A stretch of DNA of 62,710 nucleotides, filler included, from Bipalium vagum (Eukaryota), in the NCBI GenBank assembly GCA_037834085.1. It is 3 parts of 3 records of this genome, joined end to end, with 100 filler letters (N's around TTAATTAATTAA, not from the genome) between each part and the next. Parts side by side here need not be neighbours in the genome. Positions count along the whole stretch, not along the records: positions 47,138 to 62,710 come from JBBMKC010159094.1; 2 more parts are not named here. One strand, written 5' to 3'. The notes beneath the pieces are model-generated. The model worked only from the letters and a program-made list of their open reading frames with translations. It made no database searches and was not told the DNA's origin. Below are positions 10,901-62,710 of the stretch, one piece after another (within the stretch, counting starts at the first letter, position 1; each line of letters opens with the position of its first letter). The position numbers and the translations under genes were made by a program.

Positions 10901-13900
10901 CAAATTATGAAAATCCTGACGGAAAAGATGGATCAATTGGATTACTAGGTCCAAATATGCAATGCAAAGTGAACGTTTTATTTTCCAATTTTTTATTAAG
11001 GAATAAATAGGTTTTTGACGTACTTACAAGACAAGAGGTTTTCGCAAACTCTGTTGGTGAGCTGCTGATTAAGGGACCAAACATAATGAAAGGTTACTTT
11101 GGTAAGTCAATGGAAACTGAAAATGCTTTCGAGGATTTGTGGTATAAGACAGGTTAGTTATTTATTTATTTAGTATTTACATGATAAATTTTACCTTTTT
11201 ACGTATTCATTGTACTTATTTTTATAAATACTGCTTTCAGAAATTCAGCAAATAACCAAGATCTTTACACTTATTCACAATGTAACTGAAAGATGCTTAA
11301 GCATATTTTTGTTTTACAGGTCAACTATTTTTTAATTATCAAAAGTTCATTTGAGTATATCAAAATGAAAAATGTTACAGAATAACCTTCATAATCCGTT
11401 GATTTTGTTTAAATAATTGTTTCCCAAACAAGGTACTATTTTGAAATTAAATAGAGAATTATGAAAGATGATTTTAAGTTATTTAGTCATAATAATTTTA
11501 ATAATTAGAATATTCTATGAGTATAAGTATGACTCCGTTTTTTCAAAAATGCATTAAAAATTTTTTATTGAAAAATTAAATTGATCTTGTAATTATTTGT
11601 AAAATTAAATATAACTAACCAGTTAATGATACATGATTATGATTAAACATTTTTGTTAAAATAAGACATTCAAAATGTGAAATTTTTTTCCAAAAAATAT
11701 TAATGAAAATTAATTTTCATTACACTAATAAAGAAAATCACTACCCTCGTATGAATTTGACATGATCCTTCTGCTACGACAGGCAAAAATTATTTTGACC
11801 AGAAATGAAGAAGGACAAAGAACATGGTAAATCACAACATCTTCGAAGAACTATGTTGACACAGAACCCACTATATTGAATATGACCCAGGCATGTATCT
11901 CACTTTTGACAAAAATCAAAATGATTACAAAATTAGAGAAATAGGTCTCAAATACATTGACGGAATATACATTGGAAGGCAAAATACAATATTTTATGTT
12001 CTTCTGAGACAAAAAAGGATTCTTTTTTGCTTTAGAAACTTACTGGAGACGAAAAATGGGTGCATTATGACAGTCTTAAACTCAAAACATCATGCGGATG
12101 TATGATGAACGCAGTATATCAGACTAGAAACAGAATGCCCACATGTCTAAGGTTATGGTGTGTATTAAGAGAAATTAAAAAGGTGCAATTAATTATGTAG
12201 TACTACAACCATCAGAAATCATAACTGGTGAACATTATCGATGGTAATTAATTCGTTTAAGCTAGATCTGCCTGAGAAAAGATCAGAATTAGCGGACTGA
12301 AATGAAAAGATTGTGCAAGAGGATAATGGTAAATCATCTATTCATTCAGTTGTTTAGAATTATTTAGAAGAAACTAACTGAGAAATCTGGCATCGCTAGC
12401 CATATTCAACAATTATCGCATCTTCGGATTTCAATTTTTCCGCTGGATGCCTTCATCACTTTCTGGGAAGCAGTTCAGGACCGATGAAGATCTAAAAATT
12501 GGATTGATAGCTGAATTGCTTCAAAAGAACCAGAATTTTGTTTTTCCGGAACCTTTTGTGATATGAAAAATGGGCAAAGGTCCTTGCTATTAACGGAAAT
12601 TAATTTGAAAATAAAATACAGTTGGAGTCATACTTATACACCTAACATTTCTGAAATCTTACAGATGGCAAGGAATAAATATTAATTTAATTAAGGGAAT
12701 TACTTAGATTATTTATAAATATTAAGAACACTAATATTAAGACTTAATATTAAATTGAAATAAACTGACAATATTTTATCAACTTTCATCAATAATTGAA
12801 AAATCTTAATGAAAACAAAACATTTTTATATATTCGGTTGTTCAATAAAATGCACTGACTTATTGAACAACCCAATAGTACATATACGCAGTCTGATCTT
12901 TTCAATAGAAAAGGTATCCAAAATATTAATTTAGAAAAATAATCGAAATTGTAATAAATAAATAAATAAAATATCTCAAGAATAAATATTAAATACATAA
13001 ATTTAATCACCAATGTCACCGTTAAAATTAAAAAAATTTAGTATTTTATAATTAAAATTAATATCTTAATAGGCGATGTCGGCTATTATGATACAGATAA
13101 TTACTTCTACATTTCTGATCGAATCAAGGAATTAATTAAAGTCAAAGGCTTCCAGGTATTTCAATATTTTTTATTTTGTTTTATAAATTGATATATTTAG
13201 TTTCGAAATACAAGTCCTGCATTTTTTGTCAATTAGTAAACTGAAATAATTATAATTATTATACCCAAATCGATTAAATAATATCCCGGTTTGTTAGGCG
13301 ATTATTTAATTCTATATCAATTTTTTTTATTATTGAATGAAGTAAATTAAACTGATGATATAAGAAAGTATTTTAAATATGTCTTGCTTTATTTCAAAAA
13401 AGATAAATATGACCGAAAAGCTACCTGAAACAAGTTACTGTCATCAACTCTATTACCTGCTAGAAATATTTATCGTGACTCCATTTTATGAATTTTTTCA
13501 GTCTCCATGGTAGTGCCCGAAAAGGTCATCCTATTACTACTGATGACAACGAAATCTCGGTGATTATCAAAGCACAGCAACATATCTCAACACGAGAAAT
13601 ACCACAGACCTTGGTGATTTAACATTTCATAGTTCTGAAACCCTTATAAAATCTTAGGATAACTAAAAAATGATTATTTTATCACTTACGATTTGTCCGA
13701 AAAGAAAATTTCTGATCTAATTATGATCTGAATCACTCTTAAAATACTATCCATTAGACCCATTTGTGAAACAATTTTAAGCGCCGGCAGCCACACTCTA
13801 AATTATACATATTTCTGACTGATATCCGGTTTTATTATAATTAATATATAATTCTATGTTGCAAACCTTTTTAATATAATGATATTAGTTTTGAGTTTTC

Positions 13901-15420
13901 ACTTAGTATTTGACAGAATCGCTTTTCGTACAATAAAGCTCCACTAAATCAGACTCTGTCACAAAGTAACGAAAATTGGTGGGAATGTTAACAAAGCTAG
14001 GGGACCTGGTATTGCAGCTAAGCAGATATGGTTCCTGGACTCCAGAAGTGGAAATAAATCTCTTGGTGATAAGGAGAAAACCAGGAAACCTCCTGATGTT
14101 AATCTTTTAAAAGAAATAGTCAAAGTTGGTCAGATATTCCGCAAAATATGTGTTTCAGAAATCAACGGCCTTCGAATATCTGATTATGTAACATGTGTTG
14201 CGCATTTAATTCATAATTGTACCATTTTGATAAGATCATATTATGTTAATGTTGATAATTGTATATCTACAATTAAAGTAAGCACAATAAAAAATAAAAC
14301 AAAGGAAAACTATTTGAAACATATAGGAAAGCCTCAAGAAGTTATTGTTACTCGATGGTCATCATGGATGAAAGCTGCATTATATTATTTGAAGAAATTG
14401 GCCTTTATTAAATCTATAATTAATAATATATAATCTATATCTTTAGATAAGTTTTAAGACTCAGAATATAATATTGAAAGTGGATATGACGCTATATTTA
14501 ACATAAATTTAGGATTAGATTCTATAGATTTGAGAAGCTATCTACAAAAAAGATTAGAAGACAATGGAATATGCGATCTGCTAAACTTTAGTAAAGAAGT
14601 ATCTTCAATTGAATATTCTTATTTAAAAAAATGTCCACCTGTAAGTATTGCGGTAGAGCGAAGTTTTTCTATTGTAGGAAATCTGTTGGCTAACCAAAGA
14701 GATTTTAACAGCGATAATATTTACCACTACTTCTCACAATATTATGATGTATTTGATGAATAAAGTTTTTTATGTAATTATTATTTTTGAAATTTTTAAA
14801 TGACACTTTTTTAATAATAAATGCCATTTTTTATATTTTTACTGAATAAATGCCATTTTAAACTAGTTATGACAGTTTAAAGTTTAGTTTTAAAATGCCC
14901 CATTACTTTCCGAATTACCTAATATTTAAATAAAAGATATTCGTTAATTACTGTTATAATTTTAAATCTTTTTTAGAATTTTAATTAGTTTAAACAAAAT
15001 AATTTAATAAAATCGTGTTTTAAAATTTAATATATGTTTAAATTTACTTAATTCAATAATTACAAATATTTATTAAAGTATCACTAATTTAACAAATCCT
15101 CCAGGTTGCCCCTGCAGAATTAGAAGCTGCCTTATTGAATATGCCAGGGATAATTGATTGCGCTGTTATTGGAGTTCCCCATGAGAAATATGGAGAGGTA
15201 CCAAGAGCGTTTGTTATTAAAAATCAAGACATTGATGAGAAAAATATCAACGATTATATGAAAAGTTAGAATAAGCTTAGACTTTTGTTTCAATATTTTC
15301 TTTACATTAGATATTCTAAGTGATTATAAGCAACTGAAAGGAGGTATCTTTTTTATCAAAGAAATTCCCAAAACTCCTAGTGGTAAAATTCTGAGACGAT
15401 TGCTAAGAGACCGCTGGTAA
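1973..15420 (+). CDS. 4-coumarate:CoA ligase / firefly-luciferase-like acyl-CoA synthetase (ANL superfamily), 12 exons, 541 aa
   Basis: Exons 1973-1996, 2035-2154, 2719-2926, 3899-4005, 4822-5030, 5075-5243, 6426-6609, 10859-10968, 11011-11152, 13073-13155, 15105-15264, 15311-15420. All introns are GT-AG with consistent phases; total 1626 nt. Motifs [83 protein letters not shown] overlaps the stop. Exon 1 is the least certain. Confidence 0.93.
8800..9470 (-). mobile_element. Degenerate mariner transposase in intron 7 of the ligase gene
   Basis: Minus-strand remnants [11 protein letters not shown] (WVPH motif), [15 protein letters not shown] and [15 protein letters not shown], with frameshifts. 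Confidence 0.8.
9706..10590 (-). mobile_element. hAT (Buster/Charlie-type) transposon, 3' part with terminal inverted repeat
   Basis: TIR CAGGGTTTCCCAATTTTTTTGG at 9706 preceded by gtatagac (nnnTAnnn). Transposase remnants [37 protein letters not shown]. Confidence 0.85.
11780..12620 (+). mobile_element. Degenerate mariner transposase in intron 9
   Basis: [15 protein letters not shown] and degenerate [11 protein letters not shown] (YSPDLAPSDY) motifs with many stops. Confidence 0.8.
13380..13780 (+). mobile_element. Mariner N-terminal (HTH) fragment in intron 10
   Basis: [29 protein letters not shown] resembles the mariner GRP linker and second HTH. Confidence 0.6.
14170..14920 (+). mobile_element. 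hAT-like transposase 3' fragment in intron 10
   Basis: [11 protein letters not shown] (CxxH), VIVTRWSSW and [13 protein letters not shown] (hAT C-terminal ERSFS); broken ORFs 14227-14433 and 14530-14763. Confidence 0.75.
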
Positions 15421-15795
15421 ATAAAATTCTATTCGCTTCTTTTCATCATTCTAGTTGAAGAATATTAAATTTGCACTTTATATTGATATGTGATTGATTT
15501 ATTTTTATTTTCCTTATTTAATTTAAAGAGTTAATGCTTGCGATTGTATTTTAAAAACTTCAGCGTAAGATTTGTAATAATATTTGACATTTATAATAAA
15601 GAAAAATATATTAAAACCTGGGTAACCACTACTTTATTGATTAAATGATAGAATTTATAAATATCTTTATCAAAAGGAAATAAAATTTATTTAAATAATC
15701 TAATCCAAAAAAATCAAAGTATACAAATGTAAAAGAATGGAATTTAAGACTCTTCAATAAGAATGGTGAAAGAAAACGAATTAAATTGGTTTTTG

Positions 15796-18479
15796 TCAAC
15801 TATTTTTCAGGAGTCTTCTTAAAATCTTTCCACTTGGAGTTTTCGGGATTTCATTTATAAATTTTATTCCTCCCCTTAGTTGCTTATGATCACTTAGGTG
15901 ACCTGAAATAAGTAAAAAATGAAAAGAAATATAAAGTCATCCTAACTTGCTATATATTCGTTTATAGTTTTCTCATCAATATCTTTGTTTTTAACAACAA
16001 AAGCCCTTGGTACTTCTCCATACTTTTCATGGGAAACTCCAAAAACAGCACAGTCAATTATTCCCGGTATGTTCAATAAGGCTGCTTCTAACTCCGCTGG
16101 AGCAACCTTGATTTTAATTAATTAATTAATTAAAAATTATTTCTATTAATTCTGTGATTTGTTTAAATAATAAAGGAAGCATAGTTTTTTAAAATACAAA
16201 TTATAAATTACTTTATTAATATTAATTTTTACTTTTGATAATACTTTTAAGACACCAATTGAACAATATATATGTATAAATATATATACAATTTGATGAC
16301 TTCAGATGGGGTAGACTAATGAAAATGAAAAGTCATATAGAATATAAATACTGAAATATCACAAATTATGCTATAGAATAATTATGAATCAGGAAAACGT
16401 TGGTTTTTAGTAGCCGAAACGATTGTATATAATAAATATCTTAAAAATCTTTTTACAAGTTGATACATACACACTTATTCCAATAATTATCCGTACGATT
16501 ATATTGCAAATAATAAAATAACATTTAAAGAAAAAATTGTTAGAATATTTTTTAAAAGGCTATCGTTTATAAGTATAATAGCCAATGCTGCATATTTTAA
16601 AACAGTAAGATGATGAAAATAGTTTTTTTTTTAAAATATAAGCATATTTATTTGAAAATTTTGAAAATAAGTGACACAACAAATATCCGTACGAATTTAT
16701 TTATGTTAAACAGACAAACAATTAATAACAGAATTTTGTTCTTAATAATTAATTGGCCCACTCTTATTTTTAATGATCATGTCACAGAGCTTATTCATAA
16801 AACTGATCACGTTATTTCAAAAATGTTAAGTAATTTTTTGTCATTCCTCCAAGATACACCTTTTCAGTATGGTTTTCCTAGTAATTAGCCTCTCCTTCAC
16901 TTTTCTCTTCAATAGAGCCCATAAATTCTCAATTGGGTTCATATCATGTGATTGCTCAATCCATTTCATGACATTTTTACCCGACTCATGAAACCAATGT
17001 GTAATAATTTTGGCCGTATGTTTCTAGTCTCTGTCATGTTGGAATTTGAAGTAAGTCTCAAGACCCGGGTAATGGGCAGATTCTAACAAATTATCTTTTA
17101 AAATTTTAAATAATCTTGCTTATACATTATTCCATCGATGAAGACTAAATTTCCAAATCCGCAACTTGAAAAACATCCCCATGCTTTACCGTCGGACTAA
17201 GGCATTCTAATTTCATTTATTCTCCTGGTTTTCGCCAAACATAACATTGCATCCTACCAAAAAACGTTAATATAACATTCGTCAGATCAAAGGACTTTAT
17301 CCCAAGTCTGTTGAATGGTTCAAAAGTTCTTAGACCCATGTAACACTGGTTTTCCGATTATTATTATTATTACCCTATCTCTGAAAACGATTTCTCACAC
17401 TTGACCTGAAAATGACGTCATTTTCTTTTTCCATTTCTATGGTTACTTTTTCAGTTGATATCCTTCAATTTTTTTCATAATTCTTTGAATTACTCTATCT
17501 TCTTTGATTGATGCTAGTCTTGGTTTATGATTGACGAGTAGTAACCTTACATGGCGTTGTCAATATACATATACCATATAGGTATATGTTATATAATATA
17601 ATAACTTCACGGTAAACCAAAAATTACATTTTGTTAACTCATGAAATCGTGTAAATACTCAAAGAATTGAGAGAATATAAAGTGAAATTAAATTAAAAGT
17701 CAATGAAAGGCACATATGGATTCGTCTTAATCAGTTATTTGTGCAAATTGACGTGGCTCCAAATTGTGCAAAGTCAAAATGTTAAATCTATTTTTGATTT
17801 AATAAAATTTTACTCGTAAAAACAATTGTTGAAGAATTTAAGAGGGAAAATAAAATAAATCAAGTTTCAAAGGGGAAAAATAACATATGAAAACGTTAAG
17901 AGTAAAGTAAAAAAGATGACCAGAATAATCACAATCGTTAATTTAGAAAACATAAATATAGGTTGTTCAAACAACTTTTTTTTCAATTTAAGATAAACTA
18001 TTAGACGTTTTCACATGAAATGTCTGACCCTCTGACAAATATATGAAAGTCAAAAAGTATTATGAACATAAAACATTTCAATGAAAATTATCTATCTGAA
18101 TCAATTATTTGTTGCAAATGGTCAAATTCAGTGAAAGTGTTTCTAGAAAGTCTTTTTTTTTATCTATTAAATTGTTTAGGAAGGCTAAAATATCAGAATG
18201 TTGGTTGATGTCTTTGGAGAAAAAAACTGTTAATTTGACTTATTTCATGACGAAATTATAAGCAAATGCAATAATAACAATAAATGACACATTTCGAATC
18301 AAGAGAAAAAACACATAAAACTGTGGGATAAAATTATCTCCTGAAACTCTTCCTTATGTTAACTATATAATAATTAAAATAATTTTTAAGAGTTACTTGT
18401 AAACCTTTGACCTTGATTAATTCCTTGATTCGATCAGAAATATAGAAATAATTATCCGAATCATAATAGCCAAAATCAC
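15796..18479 (-). CDS. Second 4CL/luciferase-like acyl-CoA synthetase paralog, last three exons only (5' part lost at the contig end)
   Basis: Exons 18479-18397 (83 nt, [27 protein letters not shown]), 16106-15947 (160 nt, [15 protein letters not shown]...) and 15902-15796 (...[16 protein letters not shown]). Phases and internal exon sizes equal those of exons 10-12 of the + copy; frames are intact. Confidence 0.9.
16790..17540 (-). mobile_element. Degenerate Tc1-like transposase in an intron of the second ligase gene
   Basis: WDKVL*SDE, AWGCFSSCGFGNLVFIDG, KHTAKIITHWF, DMNPIENLWALLKRKV. Confidence 0.8.
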
Positions 18480-19532
18480 CTAAAACGTTAATGTTATTAT
18501 TATAATAATAAAAATGTTAATATTAATATATTGCTGTTATTAATAAATTTTTATTATTTTCTAAGTTTCTGAACTAATAATTGAGTAATCGGATTTTTAC
18601 CGTTCTCGTACCTTCAAAATGAGGTTTGTTTTAATTTGTTAATTTAATCAATTATAACTAAGTACAAAGTTAAATTTTTAAAAATTTTATAAAAATTATG
18701 ATTTAAAATAAATATTAAATCAGTTTTTAGTTCTCATCTTAATTCTTAAATTTTTTAATTTAGTTACAATATTATAATGAAAAATATTATAGATGAAATT
18801 TAAGTTATAGCTACTTTAAAAAATTATATGCAATATATGCTCATTAGATATTCCAAATAATATTATGGTTCATAATTCAAAAAATCATAAAATTTACCAT
18901 TGTGGAAATCCTGGCAGTTTATTTATTATACATAAACAGATCAACTTTCAAAAACATCTTTTTAAAGTGAACCATAAAAAAGATTTAATTTCAAGAAAAC
19001 AATTTATGATTATCATAATGCGGAAATCCAAGCAAACGAAATCATTTTGTTTTCAATGGGGAAAATTGAAGTATTTAAGAATTTGAGATATCGGTATTAC
19101 AGTATCAATGAAAAAGAAAATATAAAAAGGCAGTATGGAAGAGCTAAAGTTACACACTCAACCAAAACAAATAAAAGCTATGCGATCACAACAATTTTGT
19201 TGCAATTTGGCGTATTCGGAAAGAATGTTAAGAAAATATGTTACATCTGTCAATCTAAAAACTACCAAAGAACTTTTAGATAACCTCAAATTGTTGGTGA
19301 AATATCTCATAGCTGTTTCATTTGATGGAAATAGGAAACTTATTCTTGTTTAGTGATGAAGACGATGGTAAAGTCGACTTTAAAGTCTATCCACCTTTCT
19401 TATTCAAAACATTTACTTACCAAATATAAAGAGAACTAAAATATTTAATGTCAAAATCATATGTGATGAAGGTCACGAGATTTAATTTGGAAACCGATCT
19501 CAGTCCAAGTAGTGAGGAAATTGTTGACAATA

Positions 19533-19632
19533 NNNNNNNNNNNNNNNNNNNNNNNNNNNNNNNNNNNNNNNNNNNNTTAATTAATTAANNNNNNNNNNNN
19601 NNNNNNNNNNNNNNNNNNNNNNNNNNNNNNNN
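19533..19632. other. Artificial contig-joining linker
   Basis: 44 N + TTAATTAATTAA (stops in six frames) + 44 N; identical copy at 47038-47137. Confidence 0.95.
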
Positions 19633-23049: not shown

Positions 23050-23424
23050 TTAACGAGCTCCTGTCTGTTCCAGCAGGAACAATAATGATCGGATATATTC
23101 AATCGCCATTCGCAACGTTCGAACCTTGGATAGTCGCGTTTTACTGGTTTCCATGTGAATACATTTGCGCAGCTCAGCGAAGGCACTGTTGACCTGCTGA
23201 ACTCGTCTTCTTTCCCGGGCATTTCTTTTGGAAATTTCGACCCTCAGTTCCGTTTGGCTTCCAATCTGAACTTTTGTCTGGGTACTTTGGTTGATGATTT
23301 GGGTGAACGCAACGTAGTCCCGGCCCCATTTATCAATGCCACATGGTATTTCGCAGTAACCTGTCACGAAATACCGTTGATTGACCTGGTGACCCAGGCG
23401 ATAGATTAAGAAATTTGGCTCCAT
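23050..23424 (-). CDS. Achaete-scute-like bHLH transcription factor, intronless, ~124 aa from the first ATG
   Basis: KRNARERRRVQQVNSAFAELRKCI...RLSKVRTLRMAIEYIRSL bHLH domain. First ATG at 23424 (aatATGg); the frame is open to 23565 without an ATG. Confidence 0.85.
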   Translation of the reverse strand: MEPNFLIYRLGHQVNQRYFVTGYCEIPCGIDKWGRDYVAFTQIINQSTQTKVQIGSQTELRVEISKRNARERRRVQQVNSAFAELRKCIHMETSKTRLSKVRTLRMAIEYIRSLLFLLEQTGAR

Positions 23425-24478
23425 ATTAATGCTTGGGATGACGACAGGCTTTCGTATGAGAGTGTTTGCTGTTTCTTGTGATTTTATATATCCTTTGTTT
23501 GTGTCAATGAAGGTGAGACAATGGGGACAAACATTTGGACAAGTCGACCCACCTGTTTCCAACAATGATTACTTTCTGGTCTCTTTCCAAGTGAAAAGAT
23601 TTCATAAAACCAAATAGGGTTTAAGTTTTATTTGTATTTCAAATCTGATAGTGCTCTCTCCAACGTCAGTCCCCTATTGCGTTGTTTGAATGTACAACTA
23701 AACCGATTTGAAGCTTTTATTAAAGTGTTAGTTGAAAAGACCAGTCTTTATTTGTATGTTCACAACATTTGTTTGCCTTTCATTTAATTATTTGACAGTA
23801 AATTAGGACCATTTACTTTTCCATTTCCTCATAGGACGTCCAACGAAAACTCTCGTATGACTATATAATTAAGAGTTTTGATCAAATTATTATTATTTTT
23901 TTTTTAATATTATTATTACTATTGTTATAATTTATTATTATTAATTATTATTATTTATTAATATCATTTTTTATTATTATTTTTATATTTTATAACTATT
24001 TTTTATTTTTTATTATTATAATTAATTATCATTATTATTATTATTATTAATATACTTATTATCCCATTGTACCATTGCTTTCCTTACATAACCTTTTATG
24101 AATCGACAGTAATATTTACAACAAAAGCTTCCAAGATTTCCAACGTCCGGGTCGGTTAAGCATTTAGTTTGCACCTATTTCTGATTGGTCTGTTTGTACA
24201 CCGTCTTTGTTCACTGAATGACCGACCAACCTGACTCCGCGCCTCAACAGCTCGAGTAATGCTCACTCGATTGCAGTTCATCGTTTTTTAACTAATTTTA
24301 ACACTAAAATGATTATTTTCAAATTAAATTATTCTTTGAACACAAACGTCTCACTTGGAGACTTAAAACGGTGTCAATGATTTACCAGAGCATTTCAATA
24401 AGGAAATGATGTATTTCAAATAAAACCAATAAAATTGGAAATAAAATCGTAATGAATAAATAAAGTAAAATCGAAAAA

Positions 24479-24994
24479 TCATTTGTTATCGTAAGTTCCG
24501 GCTCCTTTATAACCACCAACATAGCCTTGTTGAGCGTTGGCACCAGCAAGATATTCTCTGCCCTCAATACCTTTACCTTGTCCGGTCTCCATATCAAATC
24601 TTTCTTTGTGAGCACCAGTGTAACCCTTAACGTCGGTCAGTCGAGCTGTTGCCGCGTCGGCAGAAATGCCAGTAGTACCGTGACCAGCAGGATTTCCCTT
24701 TGTGATTTTAGTCTTCAATTCTGCAACGGCATCATCATACTGCAGATTTCTGGCACCCATGTACGCTTCTGCCAGTGGTCCTTCGACAAATCTCATGAAA
24801 TCGTTGAAGTCCACTTCCTTTTTGGCATTTCCAATGTGCTTTCGAAATTGAATATCACACCGATTCTGATCGAATCCTTTGCAATATATTTTGCAGTCTG
24901 TGCAGATCTTTTTCAGCGTTTTGTCCGTGCACGTCGTAGACCCCTTCTTGACGGAGTCGCAGAAAGCCATAAACGAATCCCTTATATCTCCCAT
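24479..24994 (-). CDS. TPPP: Tubulin polymerization-promoting protein (p25-alpha family), 171 aa, intronless
   Basis: KKICTDCKI...DIQF N-terminal motif; C-terminal RLTDVKGYTGAHKERFD, GQGKGIEGR and GYVGGYKGAGTYD hallmarks. Confidence 0.93.
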   Translation of the reverse strand: MGDIRDSFMAFCDSVKKGSTTCTDKTLKKICTDCKIYCKGFDQNRCDIQFRKHIGNAKKEVDFNDFMRFVEGPLAEAYMGARNLQYDDAVAELKTKITKGNPAGHGTTGISADAATARLTDVKGYTGAHKERFDMETGQGKGIEGREYLAGANAQQGYVGGYKGAGTYDNK

Positions 24995-31542: not shown

Positions 31543-32421
31543 TACTGTATGTTATTTTTTGTCGTTAATTATTAAAATATACACAAGATTTTTAGAATTA
31601 TTTTTAGGTACCACATTATTTTAGTTGACCATTTTAAAATTATATTGTGATTACGTAACTGTGTTTTTTTTTAAATGTACTAAATAGTAAAACGCAACCA
31701 AAATTTCTTCGTAAATCAAAGTAAATATCTTTTTGGGCAATTTCTGGAGATAGCCGTCTCTCTATACAGTCGTAGAGATTGTTCTACGATCACCAATCTT
31801 CATTGATCGACGGCGAGATTCTGGTATTATTTTAATACTTTAAAAAGTTTTTATTTAAAATAATATTATTATTAGTAGTAATATTATATTATTAATCTTA
31901 TTATTATTATCACTCACGATCTGTACGGTTTGTGCCTTTGGCAAACTCAACAGAGATGACAATGTACAACATAAGTTTCTTTCATATTTTTTATATTAGG
32001 TGAAGATGTAGCAGAGATGTAAAAATAAGATCTTTTATTTCCCGGCACTTGAGAGTTTCTCAATGGAAAAAAGCATTCATCACCCATTCGTTGTTTTCAT
32101 AAAAATTTACGCTGCGCTCAGCAGCATATTTTATTTTGACAACATTCTTTTGTTGTAAAATGGTTTATTAAAACAACTTTTGCATAAATAATATTTAATC
32201 ACCATAGGAACGATAAAATGATTATAGTAATTTTTATATAAAAAAATTATTTATAAAATTAGAATGTGAAATGAGTCCAGATTTCATGTCCTTTTTTCCA
32301 TTCTTTCCCACTGCAAGATGAAGATCATAATAAATTAATTAATGATATTAAAGAAATCAATATTCAAATATTTTCAAGGTCGATCGATTTATTGATTAAT
32401 TTTCAAAAATAAAATTTCAAC

Positions 32422-33174
32422 ATGGAAGCCACTGAATACAGCATCATTACCGCACCCGTACCCGTCAACTCCGTTTGGTGGTTCAGCCTATCGATAGTTC
32501 AAAGAACGTTCCTCAGCGCCTTTCTCTTGTTTTACTTTGTTGGCACTTTGACTGTGACCGGCGCCATTTTTGTGGACCGTTTTTACGAATACAACTTAAC
32601 TCTGAAATCCATGCAGCTCAAGCGAAGCAGTAACACAGAGTTGATAATTCGCTATTTGGTTACCGTGAGAATAATCCACGGATTCTGGCGAGAGGATATC
32701 ACGCATGACTTCAATCAAACGAACAACGATCCTGCCAAGCTGGCCTACTTCAGCACGCACGCCGCTGTAGGCGTGGAGATTTGGAAAAACTGTCGCACCA
32801 TGTCCATCCGTGGAGGTCCTTGCCATGCAGCTGCAATTTTATGTTTGGTTCTGGGTATGATAACCCTATATTATCATTGTACCACAATAACCTTTTTCCG
32901 GATATTTATGATGATGAATGTGATGGGAGCAGCGATCATGGTGATGGTTGCGCTGGGGATGGAATACTCGGCTGCCAAAGAGTACGACTTTTGTGTGAAA
33001 AATATGATGCAGTCCGAGAGTGAAAAACGATTTGTGAGGGGTCGTTTCTTCAAACCGACATTAACCATCAACGGAATCAGCTTTTATTTGTTGCTGTTCG
33101 GTAACTTTGGTGTATTTTTGCCAATGTTAGTTCTCGGTTGCTATTTGATATTTTTTGACAGAAAAAATTTATAA
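32422..33174 (+). CDS. Four-transmembrane claudin/PMP22-superfamily-like protein, 250 aa, intronless
   Basis: Good start context (aacATGg) and GC above background. Four hydrophobic segments, a large first loop with GFW (cf. GLW) and two Cys, and GISFYL before TM4 (cf. GWSF). Confidence 0.7.
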   Translation: MEATEYSIITAPVPVNSVWWFSLSIVQRTFLSAFLLFYFVGTLTVTGAIFVDRFYEYNLTLKSMQLKRSSNTELIIRYLVTVRIIHGFWREDITHDFNQTNNDPAKLAYFSTHAAVGVEIWKNCRTMSIRGGPCHAAAILCLVLGMITLYYHCTTITFFRIFMMMNVMGAAIMVMVALGMEYSAAKEYDFCVKNMMQSESEKRFVRGRFFKPTLTINGISFYLLLFGNFGVFLPMLVLGCYLIFFDRKNL

Positions 33175-36389: not shown

Positions 36390-37202
36390 TCAAGTGTAAA
36401 CCTTTATTGAGGACTCATCATAAACTCCGATAATCTCCAAGGACTTCCCTCCTTGTACATAATATAACCAACGTTCGCCCTCTCCATTGGTATTTACATA
36501 TAAAATCTGAGGAAAGATGAAACGAGTTCCATTAGGCCAATGCTGTCCATACGGGCACCAATCTGGCATACCCATCACAACAAACATCCCAGTATCTTTG
36601 TGACACCCTCCTTTATTATTCGTGTTAATATAAAAATTTCTCGAGAGGTCTTTCAAGCTTCTAAAGGCGAAGAAGCTAAATTTCTGTCTGCGTAAGTAAG
36701 AAATCTTCCAAGGAAAAGAATTTTTCAAGTTATTTTCGTTGAACCACGAAGTGACACTGTCCGTCCTGCTGACTTCGAACAGTAAATTGATCACTATTTC
36801 GTTTTTGTAATTTCTCACTGTGATGTTCATCAGTAAAGGTCGCAAAGTATTCCATTCATCAAGAAGTAAACTTCTGAAATTATCCCAGGATTTAGTGTTT
36901 ACGTACTCTCTATTCTTTCCAGATTCAAGGTAAAACCGGTATGGATCGAATCCACTTCCCGAAAACAGTCTATACAAAACTATTACGTTATCAACTCGTT
37001 TGTAGACCCTCAATCGCCGTGGTTGATATTGCGTGGAAATCTTCGTTGGGGATTGGTAGCATAGGCGATCGTTAACCATAATGAAATAGTCCGATTTACT
37101 CCTGCAACTGGAGACGGCGCACCGTAAATATTTTGAAGAATCGCTCATAATCAGACGAAAGCAGCATAATAAAATGATGGAAATGCTTTTGAATGTCCCC
37201 AT
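36390..37202 (-). CDS. Uncharacterised secreted protein, 270 aa, intronless
   Basis: Long ORF with first ATG at 37202. Signal-peptide-like MGTFKSISIILLCCFRLIMS, a short Cys-rich segment, then a domain with SWF...SFPW...RNFYIN...GGCHKDTG.FVV...CPY...PQILY. Confidence 0.75.
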   Translation of the reverse strand: MGTFKSISIILLCCFRLIMSDSSKYLRCAVSSCRSKSDYFIMVNDRLCYQSPTKISTQYQPRRLRVYKRVDNVIVLYRLFSGSGFDPYRFYLESGKNREYVNTKSWDNFRSLLLDEWNTLRPLLMNITVRNYKNEIVINLLFEVSRTDSVTSWFNENNLKNSFPWKISYLRRQKFSFFAFRSLKDLSRNFYINTNNKGGCHKDTGMFVVMGMPDWCPYGQHWPNGTRFIFPQILYVNTNGEGERWLYYVQGGKSLEIIGVYDESSIKVYT

Positions 37203-37759
37203 CAATGATAAATGAATTATTTTTTCGAATAATTTCAAACAGAAAAGTCAATAAAATTACCTCATTTAAACAAAGCACAGATTTTTCGGTAACATGTCCA
37301 AACATAGATAAAATAATGTTCGTAATCCCATTGTTTGTCTTTGGATATTTTTTTTGTTCTTTGATTTATTTTATTTATATATGTTAGAAATATTTTTATT
37401 TATTTTTATATTTCATTTTCTGACCTCAGCTTTTCATAATTTACAAAAATAAAATTCAGAAAAACTTCAATTGAAAAGTTTTCCTATTTTAAATGTTAAA
37501 TAATTTTAGGTTGGCCAATGGTCTTGCAACACTTTGAAAAGATTGCAAATCATTATTAAATCATTAATTAATCAATATATATGTATATATCCAGTCTGAT
37601 ACATTAAATTGTCCAGTACAAAAAATTCAACACTTTTTCATTTAAATAAATTTGTTTATATCAAGCATCAGGTTATTTATCGTTGTCAATTCTAATTTAA
37701 AGTTTTGTATATTGGTTTTCTTTCTTTTTCTCCAGCACACAAGCCCTTCCTTTCAAAGG

Positions 37760-42342: not shown

Positions 42343-43683
42343 ATGATTAGCTAATTACCTTCATTTTAAAAATATATTTGAAGTATAAATAAATAAATCG
42401 CTTACTTTAAAGAATGTCGAAATTAAACTTTACAGTCAAAAAAGGAGGGGTAACGAAAAATATAAAGTCACAGGGTATTTGGTAATTTACTGGTACTTTT
42501 CTTGTTAGAAAATGAGGGAAAATATAGTCAAAATATTGGGAAAAGTGCTACTTACGGTCAACATCCAATCCCAAATGTTTTCATTAATAAATATCGAAAA
42601 AACCCAATTTGGTTTTAATATTTTCAATTTTATGAATACTGAACAGTTTTTCCACTACTATGATGGTTTTTATTCAATTTTCAATTTTTTCATTGATTAT
42701 TGATTTTTCATTATTAATTTTGCAATGCGTCAATTTTTAATTTTATTAATTTTATGATTTTGTTTTATAAATTTTCCATTAGAGTATTATTTTAATAATA
42801 TCTTTGGTTAATATATAAACTAGATGCCTGAAATTTTGAAGGTCGCCTATCGTTTATATAAAGTAAATTTTATAAATTTGGAAAATTTTTTAATTTATTA
42901 AATTCAGAGAACGAAATACGGTCCTCTTTAGGGCCACATTTCATGATTGTTGATAAAAATTTTGACCTATTTCTGACCGACCAGCAGCTTTAAAGAACAG
43001 CTTCACTATGCCGATTCTAGCAGTCAGCTTTGAGTTACTGGCGAGTTACTCTTTCTCAGAGATGGAACCCTTACAAATGTAAATGGATAAAAATGATAAA
43101 TTGAAAATAATATTTAAAATTAAAAAAAACAAGGAAAAAGATAAAATAGAAAAATTACCATTTTATCAAATTTTTAAGGTTTCCAAGTTTATTGCTCACA
43201 TAAAACAATTTTCCTTTGACATTTGAAACTCTTATTCCTAATTAAGAAAAGAACTTATCAAAACATACCGAGCGTCTAAAGGCGAGCAGAATTTCAAATT
43301 AACGAGAATTTTAAATTGCGATTTAATAATTGATTTAGTTCAAATAAACAAATTTGCAAAAATAAATGTAATATTTCTTTAAATCTTTTTACTTATTTCT
43401 CTTTTGGTCAAAAGAATTTAAAACCTTTTTATTTAATATGAATAAAATAACATATGAATATTTCTGTTGGGTTTCCAAAACAAGTCCACCAGAGACGTTT
43501 ATTAAAATTGTTGTGAAAGGGTTATTGGAAAACAAAAATGTAGGAAAATTGCATTTGTTATTAAAGTTTGAAATATTAATATCAACCAATGAAAAGTTAA
43601 TATTTGAATCAATTTTGATTGGTCTATTTTAATATTTTATATTTTTATAGGGATACAGAGTAAGCTTGTCTCATTTTCATGTG

Positions 43684-44416
43684 ATGAAATGGTTTCGGGT
43701 AATTATTTATTTCTCTTGGTTAATGTATGAAGTGCGATTATTTTGTGAGAAACCCTTTTCCCTCTACAATAATACTTGTATGTTTATCACAAATGAAACT
43801 TTAAATTTCTGTGGAGCATGGAAAATATGCACCGACAATCATGGGCGTTTGCCATTGTCGAAAGAAATACGATATTTCAAACCTGGATCAAAGAATGTTT
43901 CATATCACACGAGTATCAATGATCTTTTAAATGAGAGATATATGAATAAAAGTGGATGGGTTCAGGCGGATAGGAGTGAAATGAAGGATATTGATCTATG
44001 GAGAAAGACTGAACCAAATAGCGAAAAAGAAGATTGTGTTTTTTCTCGTTTAAATAGAATCGGTGATGGTTCCTGCAGATATAACCAAAGTGTTCTTTGC
44101 GTTTATGAAGAAAATGAGATTACTCATTCAAGACGGTTCAAGAGAGGTTTGGAAAATATTTTTAATGAAAATTTTGAAGAAGGTTGTTACGAGAGATATA
44201 AAGACGTAAATGATCTGGAATGTTCAATGAGGTATATCGATTGATTCTATCATCAGTCTTTAAATCTATGTCATATTTAGATGCCTGTTGCACCAATTTT
44301 GCAAATCATTCTATGTATCAGATGTGTCTGAAATGTCCTGCGTTTTGTCTATTTACGTTGATAGTTCATTACCAAGATCATACAGAAAATCTGGAACATG
44401 GTCAAGATTTAATTAA
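43684..44416 (+). CDS. Secreted C-type lectin (EPN) with C-terminal PAN/apple-like module, 2 exons (43684-44231, 44281-44416)
   Basis: Signal-like MKWFRVIIYFSWLM; CTLD Cys pattern with WRKTEPN...EDC...DGSC...VLC. A 49-nt phase-2 GT-AG intron joins ECSMR to CLLHQFCKSFY...SCVLS. Confidence 0.8.
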
Positions 44417-45539: not shown

Positions 45540-46780
45540 GTCCGGATACAATTACTTGATTCATTCATTGAGAGTTACTTATTAACAATTTTTGTTCTCA
45601 ATCCATGAGCCTTGGGTGTCAAACTACTTCGGGCCATTAGGCAATCCCATGTGTAATCCTATCCTGAACCGTGGAAAGAATTACGATTTAATATAAATAT
45701 ATAAATCAAAGATAAAAATAGGGATACTATAGAGATATTTTTTGCTCTAAACTCGTTAGAGATTTTGCAGAAATCAACTGCACATTGGACAATGAAAAAT
45801 GGAGGATGCTTGGCTCTAGCCTGAGATTTCGTTGGGGACTGTTGAGATATTTTGTGACTTTCGTCAATACCTCTAATAGCTCCCTCTCACCATCATGACA
45901 GTTTCCTGTCATGGGGTCCAACAGATATGCAGCACCAGAAGATTTGTCAGCCAAGAAAAACAACCAGCGCTCCGCATTCCAATGAACTGGCCAGACTATT
46001 TTTTTCCAGTGAAAAAGACTAGCGGAAGGGAATAGTCGATAGAATTCTCCTAGCCTGTTTTGAATCAAGGCTATAGCCGGTCCGGATTGTACATAGGTGA
46101 TGTTATCATCATCTTCTAAATTGGTCTGAATGAAAACTTCTATTGCCCTCCTTCCAAGTCATTCCATATTCTTATCCGCTTCCGTAATTACCGTTTCTAG
46201 TAACTAGGTGGTGAAGGAAGATGGCTTTCTTTCTGGTGCATCCTTGTGTGATTCCAAATTACGAAAAAAACATTTCTGTTAAGGATCATCGCACATAGGC
46301 ACTGATAAATGAGACTAACCATGTGTTTTTCATGATAAAGGCACCTTCGCGCACGATTTGGGGTACTTCTTTGTACATTTTGCACATTGTAGCTCATGTC
46401 TCAAACATCATATTTTCGGAAAGATTGCTGTCGGATAGGTCCATTGAATCTTTAACATGATCCTTCAGACTCTCCTGTCTTTTAGTCGTCTACCTTTTCG
46501 AACGTCTAGTATTTTGGTCATTGACCACTCCGCTGGTGTCAGAGGATTTTTTCGTCCCTTTTACAGGACAACCGAATTCACAAAATTTAGAAACCCCATC
46601 CGTAGCGGGGTTTGGTTTCGTCCTTTTTACAGGACTACCGAATTGGCTTTTAACAGCAATCCTATCGGTATCAGAGTTATTTTCCGTCTCTTTTACAGGT
46701 CTCCCGAATGTTTTGTCTCCTTCGGTGTTGGAGTGTGATGATAACCCATGAAAAAGGTCGGAGTCATCATCTCTAATAAT
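45540..46780 (-). mobile_element. Degenerate element with zinc-finger-like and Ulp1 (C48) protease-like remnants, probably the 5' region of a NeSL-clade non-LTR retrotransposon
   Basis: CAKC...HEKH and QCLC...NHTRMH followed by KKIVWPVHWNAERWLFF...LLDPM. Frames are broken and no RT was recognised. Confidence 0.5.
46520..46715. repeat. Three diverged 66-bp tandem units
   Basis: Core CGTC(C/T)(C/T)TTTTACAGG at 46553, 46619 and 46685; the minus strand reads FG(R/S/C)PVKxT every 22 codons. Confidence 0.8.
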
Positions 46781-47037: not shown

Positions 47038-47137
47038 NNNNNNNNNNNNNNNNNNNNNNNNNNNNNNNNNNNNNNNNNNNNTTAATTAATTAANNNNNNN
47101 NNNNNNNNNNNNNNNNNNNNNNNNNNNNNNNNNNNNN
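47038..47137. other. Artificial contig-joining linker
   Basis: 44 N + TTAATTAATTAA + 44 N, flanked on both sides by (TAT)n. Confidence 0.95.

Positions 47138-47207
<70 letters not shown>
47138..47207. repeat. (TAT)n microsatellite
   Basis: Directly visible. Confidence 0.95.
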
Positions 47208-58780: not shown

Positions 58781-60975
58781 CTCCATAATAATTTATTAAT
58801 TCAAACCGTTTTCTGTTTTTGTTCATTTTACTATTAAAACAAATGAAATTATATATTTTTCACATTTAAATGTTCGCATTTAATTCGAACATATTGAGCT
58901 TTAAAATTTATCCTTGTTTTTATTAAAAATTTAATTTATACTTTTATTTAATTATTAATATCTTTTTGCTAAATATACTGCGAATTAAATTAAAAATTAA
59001 ATGTTACGCAGATATTTTTAGCTTCTTACACTATTAATTTGTGGTGGTTTATACAGTCACAATTTGTTTGTCAAAATTATCAAGAAAAAATCAAAGGTGT
59101 TGAATTATTCATTAATTATGATTAGTGACATTTTCATGTATGATAATTGCTATAATAAAAAATTAAGTTTAAAAATATGAATTTACGAACGTAAATCGCA
59201 ATATTACGTATCTTAATATGAAAAGATATACTAAATCGAATTTAAAATAGATAATTAATCGAAAATAGAAATTACTATGAATAGAAATTAATGTAAATAA
59301 AATAATGTTTTTAAAAATCAGATTTGCAAATAAATATTTTAAAACCATTTGTGTTATCTCAGTTTATTTGAATTTTTATTGTGACAGTAAATTTCAGTTT
59401 TTTTGATTGAACGTTCATCGGTAAACCCTTCTGATATTCAATATTTTGTTAAGTAACCTAAAAGACCAATTTCAATCTTCTTAACCCATCTAAAATTAGT
59501 CACTTTTTAAGAACTTAACACATTTATTTTTAAGATTTGTTTAAATAGATCAATTAAATATATCACTTTATACTTACAGTTATCTTCTTTTAAACTTCTT
59601 TTATTATTTTTATGTTTGCTTATTTTAAAATTTTAAAATGTTTTAGATGGATATGCAATTGGAATTCGACCTTCAAGATAAAGCATTTAATCTTATCAAA
59701 CTTTGGATTACCTTCTCGTTTGTTCAATGAATCTCATATTTTTCTAACTGTTTTTTAAAAATTTTGTATCATTGAGACTAGGTCTTTTATGCTTCAACTG
59801 TTTCTTATAATTTAGATCAGTTGTTTCTAAACATAATAGATTTAAATAAACGGCAGTCATTTAACAAGATCAAAACTATAAGGTAATCGAAAAAACACTT
59901 AAGCATTAATCAACAACAAAGTCAACATTAATAACAAGTATATTTGACTATTGCTCTAACCCAATCGTCTTATAATAAATATGACTACTTATAAATAATA
60001 AAAAGAATATAAATAAGTACATAAAATATCAAATTAATGCTCCTTATTTCTTTTGATCATTGCCGTCTACAGTCAGTTGTGTCATAAATAGAGTCATTCT
60101 CTCGCTTAGAGTTTCAAGAAACAAGTGGTCTCTCTTACAATTTTTCCAATGGTGTAATCCGTAGTTGTCTATTCTAGAAGCTCCAATTGGTTACCTGCAA
60201 CCATATGTCGAACTCACAGAGCTGGATATTGGCGTTAAGAAAATTAATTCATTGCCAGAAATTAAAAACGAGTCATGTAATTAAATTTTGCTGGTCTTAA
60301 TTCCCGAATTCCGTCGTTCTTGACTGACACCCTGGGATCCATTAAGGAACTCATCGTTGATACAGGAACCAGGAAGACTCTTCCAGCTGATCTATTTTAC
60401 CATCATTATTATTATATTATTTATTATAATAATTATTATTGTTTTTTTTTATTTCATTTGATTATTAATTTGTCATTTGATTTCATTATCTTATCACTGT
60501 GATTGTTTATTATTGTTTTATTATTATAATGTAATTTATGCATAAGATTTTTAATGTTCTAGATATTTTTTTATTATCCACACTACTACTTCTTTGGTGA
60601 TGTATAGTAGGAATTTGACTAGAACTGTGAGGGTGAAAACATTCAGAGTTATCTTAGTGCTATATAGACATAAGAGTCAGTGAGATTCAGAGAAGTGTTG
60701 ACTATTGGTTGTAAAGTATAGTTTGATTAATATTGAAATTCTTCATAATTTCGAACAGACTTTCAATAAATCTTATTGTTGTTATTCGATATCTTGGCTT
60801 ACTCGAAGAATTATAGTGGAACCTAATCATAAAACAAGGTAGTGAGTCTCATAATAGTAACTGGTTAATATTAAAATATTCTTCTATGAATAATTGTAAT
60901 TTTTATAATCTTGTCTATTAGAAAAGAAAAAATTTTTGTTTTTTTAATTTAAGGGTTGAGGCCTTTGTTAATTAA

Positions 60976-62233
60976 TTAAATTCCCATAGAAAGGATTTGG
61001 TTATCACGTTTTCCTAATTTTCTAATGAAATTTGAGAATTGCAATCCTTGTCTAACCTGGAATCAAAAATGAAATATAAATAAAAATTAAAAATATTTCT
61101 AATAATAATATTGTTACTTTATTTTATCATAAATCAAAACCATATTGACTTACATAGGAAAATTTTTTCCTACCTGTAAAAATAATCGGACAAATTAATA
61201 TTATATATTTTAAAATATATATAATAAAAAATTCAGTTAAATTAATAATATAAGGCATACAACATTATTATTTCTCAAGCTTTAGCAACCCTATATTAAA
61301 AACGTTATGAAAAGATTTGAACCTTAACAAAATGGTGTTAACATTAAGAAATGTGTATATTTTAAAATTCTTTGTAATTGAAAAAGAGTTTGTTGATAAA
61401 TATTAATTTCTGATAATGAAAATAAAAAAAATATTGGATAAATTTAATAAAGAAACTATATTTTTCAGTTCCTGGTAAAAATGGAAAAAACATTGAAGAT
61501 AAATATTTGACTCCGATATCTTATTTTAATTTTTTATAATATATTTCACTTTAATTTTTAACCTTGGTGCTACCACTGGGGTCCATATGGACCCCATGGA
61601 TACTTTGAGATGAAATATCTTATGGATACTTCATTCGATTGCGCAATAAATTTTGGACATTTAATTATATGACAAAATTTATGAAATGCATTCATATAAT
61701 ACATAAATATCAAACCATAATGGTAGGGCATTGTATTGTAACACTCACAACCAATGGGGTCCAATTTGACCCCATTTCAATTTAATCTACTTATAAGCAA
61801 TTTACAAAGGAACTACCGTATTTAAAACTTTTATTTGTCAATAAATAATAGAATAACATAACATTGAACTTCGAAAAATATGAACGTCCTAGACATTCCT
61901 TGATACAGCACACGAAATACATATCAATTCCGAATGCTCTTGGCACACAAACTTGCCACATTTGCTGCATTTCTCACGTACCTTACGATCAAGATCTCGA
62001 GCGCAACAACAACAACGTCCACGTTTCCTTGCTCCACTTGGAACTGTCAAATTTTTATTTCCCATATCAACAGGCATTTTCCGCTGACAATTTTTTTTAT
62101 CTAATCTTCTTTTGTCTCGGCCCATTTTTAAAATTTTCCATTCTTTACAAATCTGAATAGATTTTATTATTTTAATGGAATATTGACAGAGAATTAACAT
62201 GACCAAGGTCCTTATAATATACTTAACTTTCAT
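60976..62233 (-). CDS. Candidate small secreted prohormone / neuropeptide precursor, ~61 aa; exons 62233-62149, 61173-61154, 61056-60976
   Basis: Phase-consistent GT-AG model giving MKVKYIIRTLVMLILCQYSIKIIKSIQIC-RKK-FSYVRQGLQFSNFIRKL-GKR-DNQILSMGI*. The 20-nt exon has a TTTTTACAG acceptor and GTAAGT donor. Confidence 0.4.
61562..62140 (-). mobile_element. piggyBac 3' end
   Basis: TTAA at 61558-61561 then CCTT terminus; GGGGTC...GACCCC subterminal palindromes near 61577 and 61755; Cys-rich C-terminal domain RGRCCCC...CSKCGKFVCQEH...CISC. Confidence 0.85.
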
Positions 62234-62710
62234 TGACTATTTTATCTTAACAATGGAATATTAAATCAAAAATATATTATTTTTTATGTTGACGATTAAA
62301 AATTATCTTGTTTACTTTCACGAGTATTTATTGTCCTCTTCATATTTTTCTACTGGCTTATCAATATATAATATATTAATATAATATATTAATTATATTA
62401 ATTTTCTAAATTTCTAAACTTTTTTTAAATTTTCAGAAATTTTTCACACATTATTTTTTAATTTTTAAATATTTTTGTGCATAAGTGATGGATGCTTTAT
62501 AATGTTTACGTTTGACTGTAAATAAATATTAAAGCATATTCTTTTTATTATAATTTAATTCGTTGGTCTACACTTCACAGTGATTTCCATAAGGTTTTTA
62601 TTTTTTTGTCGATCATAAACAACGCATATAACTACTCTTATTATCTTATATTAATAAAAGTCGATCTTCAATTAAAAGTAATAAATAATAAACCTAATAA
62701 TTTTAATAAA

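What the first reader, a model, noticed from the sequence alone, without database searches (positions are those of the whole stretch)
60976..62233. Hidden micro-exon gene for a putative new amidated neuropeptide (…FIRKL-amide), masked by a piggyBac fragment
Seen: ORF 61889-62233 is a chimera. Its first ~28 aa look like a signal peptide and the rest is the piggyBac Cys-rich tail. A GT donor at 62148 sits at that boundary. A 20-nt exon with near-perfect splice sites (61173-61154) and a terminal exon (61056-60976) join in phase to give signal + RKK + FSYVRQGLQFSNFIRKL + GKR + short tail. Known: dibasic sites plus G-K-R are the convertase/PAM amidation signature. Inference: a 17-aa amidated peptide that I cannot assign to a family; its first ten residues loosely recall the planarian 1020HH-type YSYLKGGxRW peptides. 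Exon 1 is the weakest part. Two further possible exons (61471-61457 and from 61409) could change the N-terminus.
Basis: partly seen in the sequence, partly recalled or inferred. Interest (0 to 1): 0.7.

Follow-up and report, generated by a model that had tools for sequence, protein, structure and literature searches.

The report
Candidate flatworm amidated neuropeptide gene
Three short pieces of a flatworm genome, interrupted by a transposon remnant, can be spliced on paper into a 61-residue protein that would likely release an uncatalogued amidated signalling peptide, but no transcript or relative confirms it, so it is about an even bet.

Summary
The coordinates and frame are right: the 85, 20 and 81 nt pieces join into an open 61-codon frame with a basic site, a 17-mer, G-K-R and a 9-residue tail. 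The host is a flatworm. The piggyBac piece is a high-copy right end, 61562 to about 62110, so the boundary lies about 38 nt from the donor at 62148. Micro-exon pairs and amide-signal exons alone are at chance level. The joined pattern arose in 8 of 300 shuffled windows and, with G-K-R, a hydrophobic amide and a signal exon, in 0 of 1293; these criteria were set after the fact. Against: exon 1 has non-coding-like codons and GC, the other frame is also open, and no RNA or homologue evidence was obtained. It matches none of the 51 Schmidtea prohormones; the 1020HH likeness is measurable but fails the family core. Odds: prohormone end about 0.5, the exact three-exon model about 0.3. The scan's notes show no look-alike on other DNA. 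Modest interest.

The parts
62149..62233 (-). Candidate exon 1: ATG, basic start, short hydrophobic core (predicted signal peptide), phase-1 donor GTAAAG at 62148
   Evidence: Hydrophobicity 2.26; 7 such ATG..GTAA exons on both strands of the window, itself included. GC 0.24. Low depth (8.9) in run X2 over 62160-62254, so not part of the repeat.
61562..62110 (-). Right-end fragment of a high-copy piggyBac element: Cys-rich transposase tail (stop at 61889), two subterminal palindromes (61773-61756, 61595-61578) and the right terminal repeat; lies in proposed intron 1
   Evidence: (depth about 200-425 against 16 for the unique flank; other copies diverge beyond 62097-62110). No second copy of the terminal 23 nt in the window at up to 6 mismatches.
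61558..61561 (.). TTAA target site at the element's right end
   Evidence: Sequence
61457..61471 (-). Alternative 15-nt exon (symmetric, phase 1); gives a stop if joined to exon 1
   Evidence: GC 0.20, donor GTTTCT
61329..61409 (-). Alternative 81-nt exon (symmetric, phase 1); gives a stop if joined to exon 1
   Evidence: GC 0.17 (intron-like), donor GTTAAG; no Pfam match
61174..61258 (-). Alternative start: an in-frame ATG at 61258 reads without a stop into exon 2 and gives a hydrophobic stretch (two-exon model)
   Evidence: 45-codon open frame 61264-61130; codon score strongly non-coding
61154..61173 (-). Candidate exon 2 (20 nt): encodes the basic cleavage site (61171-61163) and the first three residues of the peptide
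   Evidence: TTTTACAG acceptor, GTAAGT donor
61057..61153 (-). Candidate intron 2, 97 nt, GC 0.15
60976..61056 (-). Candidate terminal exon: 14 peptide residues (61056-61015), G-K-R (61014-61006), 9-residue tail, stop
   Evidence: GC 0.30. This GC step is seen at 5 of 338 strong acceptors. Codon score uninformative (ratio 0.74).
60570..60948 (-). Possible poly(A) signals: ATTAAA at 60948, first AATAAA at 60575
   Evidence: common by chance in AT-rich DNA

Best explanation
Exons 61173-61154 and 61056-60976 are likely the last two exons of a small flatworm prohormone gene whose product would be secreted, would be cut at the basic site and at G-K-R, and would be amidated to a 17-residue peptide ending in leucine-amide that is predicted to signal through a GPCR. 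Shown: the sequence, frame, sites and the transposon. Inferred from established prohormone biology: signal peptide to secretory pathway, convertase (PC2-type) cleavage, carboxypeptidase trimming, PHM/PAL amidation of the glycine. The signal peptide most likely comes from 62233-62149, spliced across a 975-nt intron holding the piggyBac remnant. That exon is the weakest step (about 0.3 for the exact model); the true first exon may lie beyond the window or have been lost with the left part of the element.
For: Open 61-codon join with the canonical order of parts. The joined pattern occurred in 8 of 300 shuffled windows. In 1293 more shuffles there were 15 such models: 2 with G-K-R, 1 also with a hydrophobic amide residue, and 0 with a signal-like exon in phase; the real locus has all three. 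GC step from intron (0.15) to exon (0.30) at 5 of 338 strong acceptors. Exon 1 is the only non-transposon ATG exon with hydrophobicity >=2.2 that joins exon 2, and it selects the amide frame. Size, KK-type cleavage, uncut internal RK and a short tail after GKR all occur among Schmidtea prohormones (PMC2953531 Table S5). The first ten residues score 25 against the 1020HH-1 peptide, reached by 4 of 39120 window 17-mers. Planarians have PC2, CPE and PHM (abstract of 10.64898/2026.10.10.758126).
Against: All criteria were chosen after seeing the locus, and the scan reads very many windows. Each element alone is at chance level. Real splice sites in this genome are weak: 0 of 6 donors of the neighbouring seven-exon gene are GTAAG and 1 of 6 acceptors meets the strict rule, so few real genes would meet the strict pattern either. 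Real exons there have GC 0.31-0.40, while the candidates have 0.24, 0.25 and 0.30. Codon likelihood ratios: exon 3 0.74, exon 1 0.04 (trained on 8 non-prohormone frames). Signal-like exons arise at 0.06-0.31 per kb in this AT-rich DNA. Splicing from 62148 must skip two more pyrimidine-rich acceptors (61472, 61410). The other frame is open. No family match in Pfam or PDB.
Confidence: 0.5

Rival explanations
1. Chance: the pieces are non-coding AT-rich sequence next to a transposon remnant, and the splice sites, basic residues and hydrophobic stretch co-occur by accident.
For: Micro-exon pairs 10 against 9.3 expected; amide terminal exons 7 against 4.7 expected. Codon scores are neutral or non-coding. 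Candidate GC is at or below the lowest real exon. The 17-mer can be made to resemble several unrelated families by eye, which shows such likeness is cheap.
Against: 0 of 1293 shuffles give the full set of features, and the GC step is rare (5 of 338).
Confidence: 0.27
2. Exons 2 and 3 are real but end a different, longer gene that starts upstream, possibly beyond the window, read in the other open frame or through the 15-nt and 81-nt exons; G-K-R is incidental.
For: The phase-0 frame of exons 2+3 is open. The 15, 81, 20 and 81 nt pieces are open together in phase 1 with introns of 47, 155 and 97 nt; 47 nt is near the 42-44 nt short introns of the neighbouring gene. The window ends 477 nt above exon 1.
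Against: The extra exons have intron-like GC (0.20, 0.17) and no family match. The other frame of exon 3 scores no better (-3.2 against -1.7 over 13 codons).
Confidence: 0.18
3. ORF 61889-62233 is wholly a decayed piggyBac transposase end, and the 'signal peptide' is the hydrophobic helix that precedes the Cys-rich domain. This would remove exon 1 but leave exons 2 and 3 open.
For: One hit (P0042) aligns from residue 12 with few gaps; 3 of 75 hits reach residues 15-28. For residues 1-41 the atlas's ten best hits with a family all share the DDE_Tnp_1_7 family or clan, but the best ranks 13th at 0.88 and the part was cut from the whole chimeric ORF.
Against: Residues 1-41 score no better than shuffles against a profile of 72 of the 75 hits. 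Other copies of the element diverge from the window above 62110, and depth falls from about 200 to 8.9.
Confidence: 0.05

Closest known systems
Planarian 1020HH-1/-2 and Schistosoma NPP-27 prohormones (PMC2953531, Table S5 and Table 3)
   Same: Dibasic site followed by aromatic-S-Y-aliphatic-basic, G at position 7 and an aromatic at position 10; 3 identities and 6 non-negative exchanges in 10 positions, score 25 of a self-score of 59.
   Different: 1020HH peptides are 8-10-mers with G-G-aliphatic-R-aromatic ends, occur in several copies and are not amidated. Here the first G and the R are Q, there is one copy, and seven more residues lead to an amide signal.
Flatworm NPY/NPF precursors (Smed-npy-1 to -11)
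   Same: One amidated peptide, then G-K-R and a short tail; two aromatic residues seven apart (by eye).
   Different: No R-x-R-F/Y end, no intron in the arginine codon before the amidated residue, and no proline-rich start.
FVRL/FVRI-amide peptides (Smed-npp-1; annelid FVRIamide)
   Same: Aromatic-aliphatic-R near a leucine-amide end.
   Different: An extra lysine before the leucine, one long copy instead of many short ones; best ungapped score only 14 of 27.
CRF/DH44/egg-laying hormone family (pattern recalled, from no call)
   Same: Amidated aliphatic end with an aromatic-aliphatic pair five and four residues before it, and a basic cluster about 20 residues upstream.
   Different: No Pfam CRF match for either piece; no N-terminal half that joins exon 1.
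piggyBac (DDE_Tnp_1_7) transposon
   Same: Cys-rich tail, terminal repeat ending at TTAA, high copy number.
   Different: Only the last 549 nt or so; no left end in the window.

Membership tests
Amidated neuropeptide prohormone (criteria of PMC2953531) | Signal sequence | tested here: inconclusive
   Hydrophobicity rule only (2.26); SignalP not available; such stretches arise at 0.06-0.31 per kb
Amidated neuropeptide prohormone (criteria of PMC2953531) | Basic cleavage sites flanking the peptide, with G before the C-terminal site | tested here: met
   in the frame set by exon 1
Amidated neuropeptide prohormone (criteria of PMC2953531) | Under 200 residues and not similar to other annotated proteins | tested here: met
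   61 residues; the pieces have no significant Pfam or PDB match, though short queries have little power
Amidated neuropeptide prohormone (criteria of PMC2953531) | Transcript verified by cDNA; peptide seen by mass spectrometry | not testable with these tools
   No run on record as RNA was available
1020HH / NPP-27 | G-G-aliphatic-R-aromatic C-terminal core | tested here: not met
   Q in place of the first G and of the R
1020HH / NPP-27 | Free acid end at a basic site; several copies per precursor | tested here: not met
   One copy, extended to G-K-R
NPY/NPF | R-x-R-F/Y-amide end | tested here: not met
NPY/NPF | Intron within the arginine codon before the amidated residue | tested here: not met
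   The intron is phase 0, 14 residues before the amide
CRF/DH44/ELH | About 40-residue peptide matching the CRF profile | tested here: inconclusive
   Single exons gave no hit; the spliced form was not scanned
piggyBac | Cys-rich domain of a DDE_Tnp_1_7 transposase | tested here: met
piggyBac | Terminal repeat at a TTAA site | tested here: met
   Right end only; multi-copy

The most novel reading that the evidence does not exclude
The gene is real and founds an uncatalogued flatworm peptide family: a 1020HH/NPP-27-derived peptide that lost its closing basic site, gained seven residues and became amidated, encoded with its cleavage site on a 20-nt micro-exon and still spliced across a piggyBac remnant.
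Probability: 0.15. Interest if true: 0.55.

Novelty: new member of a known kind. Interest (0 to 1): 0.3.

Why it matters
Planarians have 52 known neuropeptide genes, of which 16 of the 51 tested affect regeneration or stem cells (abstract, 10.64898/2026.10.10.758126), and Saberi et al. report 566 putative GPCRs (search listing). A further amidated ligand would be a candidate for receptor pairing and RNAi. It would also show why such genes are missed: tiny exons, with the first one hidden in a transposon-looking ORF. New lineage-specific flatworm prohormones are found routinely (SPP-20, Sm-npp-30 to -40), so this would extend a catalogue, not change a concept.

Tried and rejected
No whole genome is held. 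RNA: no RNA holder listed. Run X1 (RNA only by guess, different organism label) carries another copy of the piggyBac end and has no cover over exons 1-3; this is no evidence either way. X2 covers 59500-61596 with 0 differences and may be the source sample, so it is not independent. No joint at the proposed junctions is among the 15 of 16 joints shown; these are contigs, so no inference follows. Homology search of the peptide itself was not achieved: exon 3 gives only 26-28 stop-free residues, below what the large protein and locus searches take, so conservation is untested, not absent. Word-based search with the 114-residue ORF among longer proteins: 0 of 7 candidates scored, although the full HMMER search found 75. 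Exact look-up: 0 of 4 window proteins are in the collection. Pfam and PDB on single exons: only GRAS (E 0.24) and tau (E 0.85), rejected as noise. My own first idea that exon 1 is transposase was not supported. The read-through start at 61258 is disfavoured by codon score (-19 against a coding mean of +3 per 26 codons) and by a lysine in its hydrophobic stretch. One search used three wrong intron ends for the calibration gene; these were corrected. Literature: the C-terminal five-letter motif together with 'neuropeptide' occurs in 2 papers, both cell-penetrating-peptide reviews (listing only). Koziol 2016 and McVeigh 2009 are not held; bioRxiv supplements and figure-only sequences such as SPP-20 were not seen, and a relative could be listed there.

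Full report
Setting. The window is AT-rich animal DNA (GC 0.20-0.36 per 2 kb). Its p25-alpha protein finds 39 relatives; the best named ones are all flatworms (70% Schistocephalus), with an unnamed record at 87%. Earlier AI notes on this genome call it a planarian; I tested only 'flatworm'. No whole genome is held.

Observation. On the minus strand, 62233-62149 (85 nt), 61173-61154 (20 nt) and 61056-60976 (81 nt) join into an open frame of 61 codons: basic start, hydrophobic core, R-K-K, 17 residues ending in leucine, G-K-R, nine residues, stop. Donors are GTAAAG and GTAAGT; acceptors end in TTTTACAG and GATTCCAG.

The transposon. The 114-residue ORF finds 75 proteins at E<=0.001, most over the Cys-rich half; 6 of 8 scanned carry DDE_Tnp_1_7, one carries a Tc5 DNA-binding domain and one has no family. 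The atlas agrees weakly (0.90, zf-Tnp_2 on 14% of members). The element ends at 61562 before TTAA, and its terminal 23 nt have no partner in the window. In run X2 the depth is 16 on the unique flank, about 200-425 over the element and 8.9 over 62160-62254; other copies leave the window's sequence at 62097-62110. So a right-end remnant of about 549 nt abuts unrelated DNA. Residues 1-41 do not match a profile built from 72 of the 75 hits (3 dropped because their match is not at the C-terminus): -1.1 bits, equalled by 739 of 1000 shuffles. One pairwise alignment and a context-confounded atlas query point the other way, so a small chance of a transposase origin is kept.

Is it more than chance? 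With strict rules (GTAAG donor; YAG with at least 10 pyrimidines in 15), the window has 10 micro-exon pairs (9.3 expected) and 7 terminal exons with an amide signal (4.7 expected). The joined pattern occurs once, here, against 0.03 per shuffled window (8 of 300 windows). In 1293 further shuffles there were 15 models; 2 had G-K-R, 1 also a hydrophobic amide residue and none a signal-like exon in phase, whereas the real locus has all three. The GC step at exon 3 is shared by 5 of 338 strong acceptors. These rules were fitted to the locus. Calibration on a seven-exon gene in the window (open for 376 codons) cuts both ways: the candidate's sites are stronger than the real ones, but real genes here would seldom meet the strict rule, and real exons have GC 0.31-0.40 against 0.24, 0.25 and 0.30 for the candidates. 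Codon usage is neutral for exon 3 (ratio 0.74) and against exon 1 (0.04), with the caveat that the training frames hold no prohormone. Weighing a prior of a few per cent for a neuropeptide gene per window (my estimate) against these rates gives about even odds or somewhat better; I set 0.5 for a prohormone end and 0.3 for the exact model.

Alternative structures. Outside the transposon, exon 1 is the only ATG-opened exon with a hydrophobic core that joins exon 2 directly. An in-frame ATG at 61258 gives a two-exon version, but its codons are strongly non-coding. The 15-nt and 81-nt pieces keep the amide frame if entered from another upstream exon, but have intron-like GC. Exons 2+3 are also open in the phase-0 frame.

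Mechanism. If transcribed as modelled, the precursor would enter the secretory pathway, be cut after the basic site and at G-K-R, be trimmed and be amidated. The pathway is established knowledge, and its enzymes are reported in planarians (abstract and outline seen). Every step beyond the DNA sequence is inferred. No RNA run on record was available.

Comparison. I read all of Table S5 of PMC2953531 (51 Schmidtea prohormones) and passages of its text. None is an evident orthologue. The first ten residues score 25 against the 1020HH-1 peptide; 4 of 39120 window 17-mers and 3e-5 of random ones reach that. Over roughly 200 listed peptides and two anchor points this is about 0.01-0.04 (my estimate): notable, not decisive. 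The G-G-x-R core, the free acid end and the multiple copies are absent. NPY/NPF fails on both the end motif and the intron position. FVRL-amide and CRF/DH44 likenesses are weak, and the latter is recalled. Other papers: passages of PMC4825013, PMC9495596, 10.1101/2021.03.03.433790, PMC3890597 (and section 17) and 10.1101/496745; abstract and outline of PMC13551398. None shows this peptide in the passages seen. 'Not in print' rests on these and on searches; two key flatworm catalogues were not held, and preprint supplements were closed. The scan's notes hold no look-alike.

Verdict. A careful and arithmetically correct gene model, rarer than chance but unverified, with two small corrections. 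If real, it is a new member of a well-known kind. Interest 0.3.

Noticed in passing
window 2719-11152, + strand: Seven exons join into an open frame of 376 codons with introns of 42 to 4249 nt and weak donors; by eye a 4-coumarate-CoA ligase/luciferase-like acyl-CoA ligase (name not tested). Used as splice-site calibration.
   Followed up: partly
window 24479-24994, - strand: Intronless p25-alpha/TPPP gene of flatworm type.
   Followed up: yes
window 23050-23568, - strand: bHLH frame (Pfam HLH, E 3e-17), achaete-scute-like by eye.
   Followed up: no
window 61562-62110: The piggyBac family looks young and abundant. Run X1, under a different organism label, holds a copy that differs from the window at 17 of 541 letters, and nearly all the listed differences are shared with the X2 copies: the same species under another label, a close relative, or recent transfer.
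   Followed up: no
window 32413-33174 (+), 36390-37247 (-), 43651-44244 (+): Three long frames without a Pfam match: by eye a four-helix membrane protein, a secreted protein and a C-type-lectin-like protein.
   Followed up: no
window 45727-46158, - strand: Weak Ulp1-type protease match (E 0.018, below cut-off).
   Followed up: no
window 15100-16111: Inverted arms of 190 nt, 81% complementary, 632 nt apart: MITE-like element.
   Followed up: no
window 19529-19632 and 47038-47141: Identical inverted 104-nt stretches made mostly of N runs: masking or assembly artefact.
   Followed up: no
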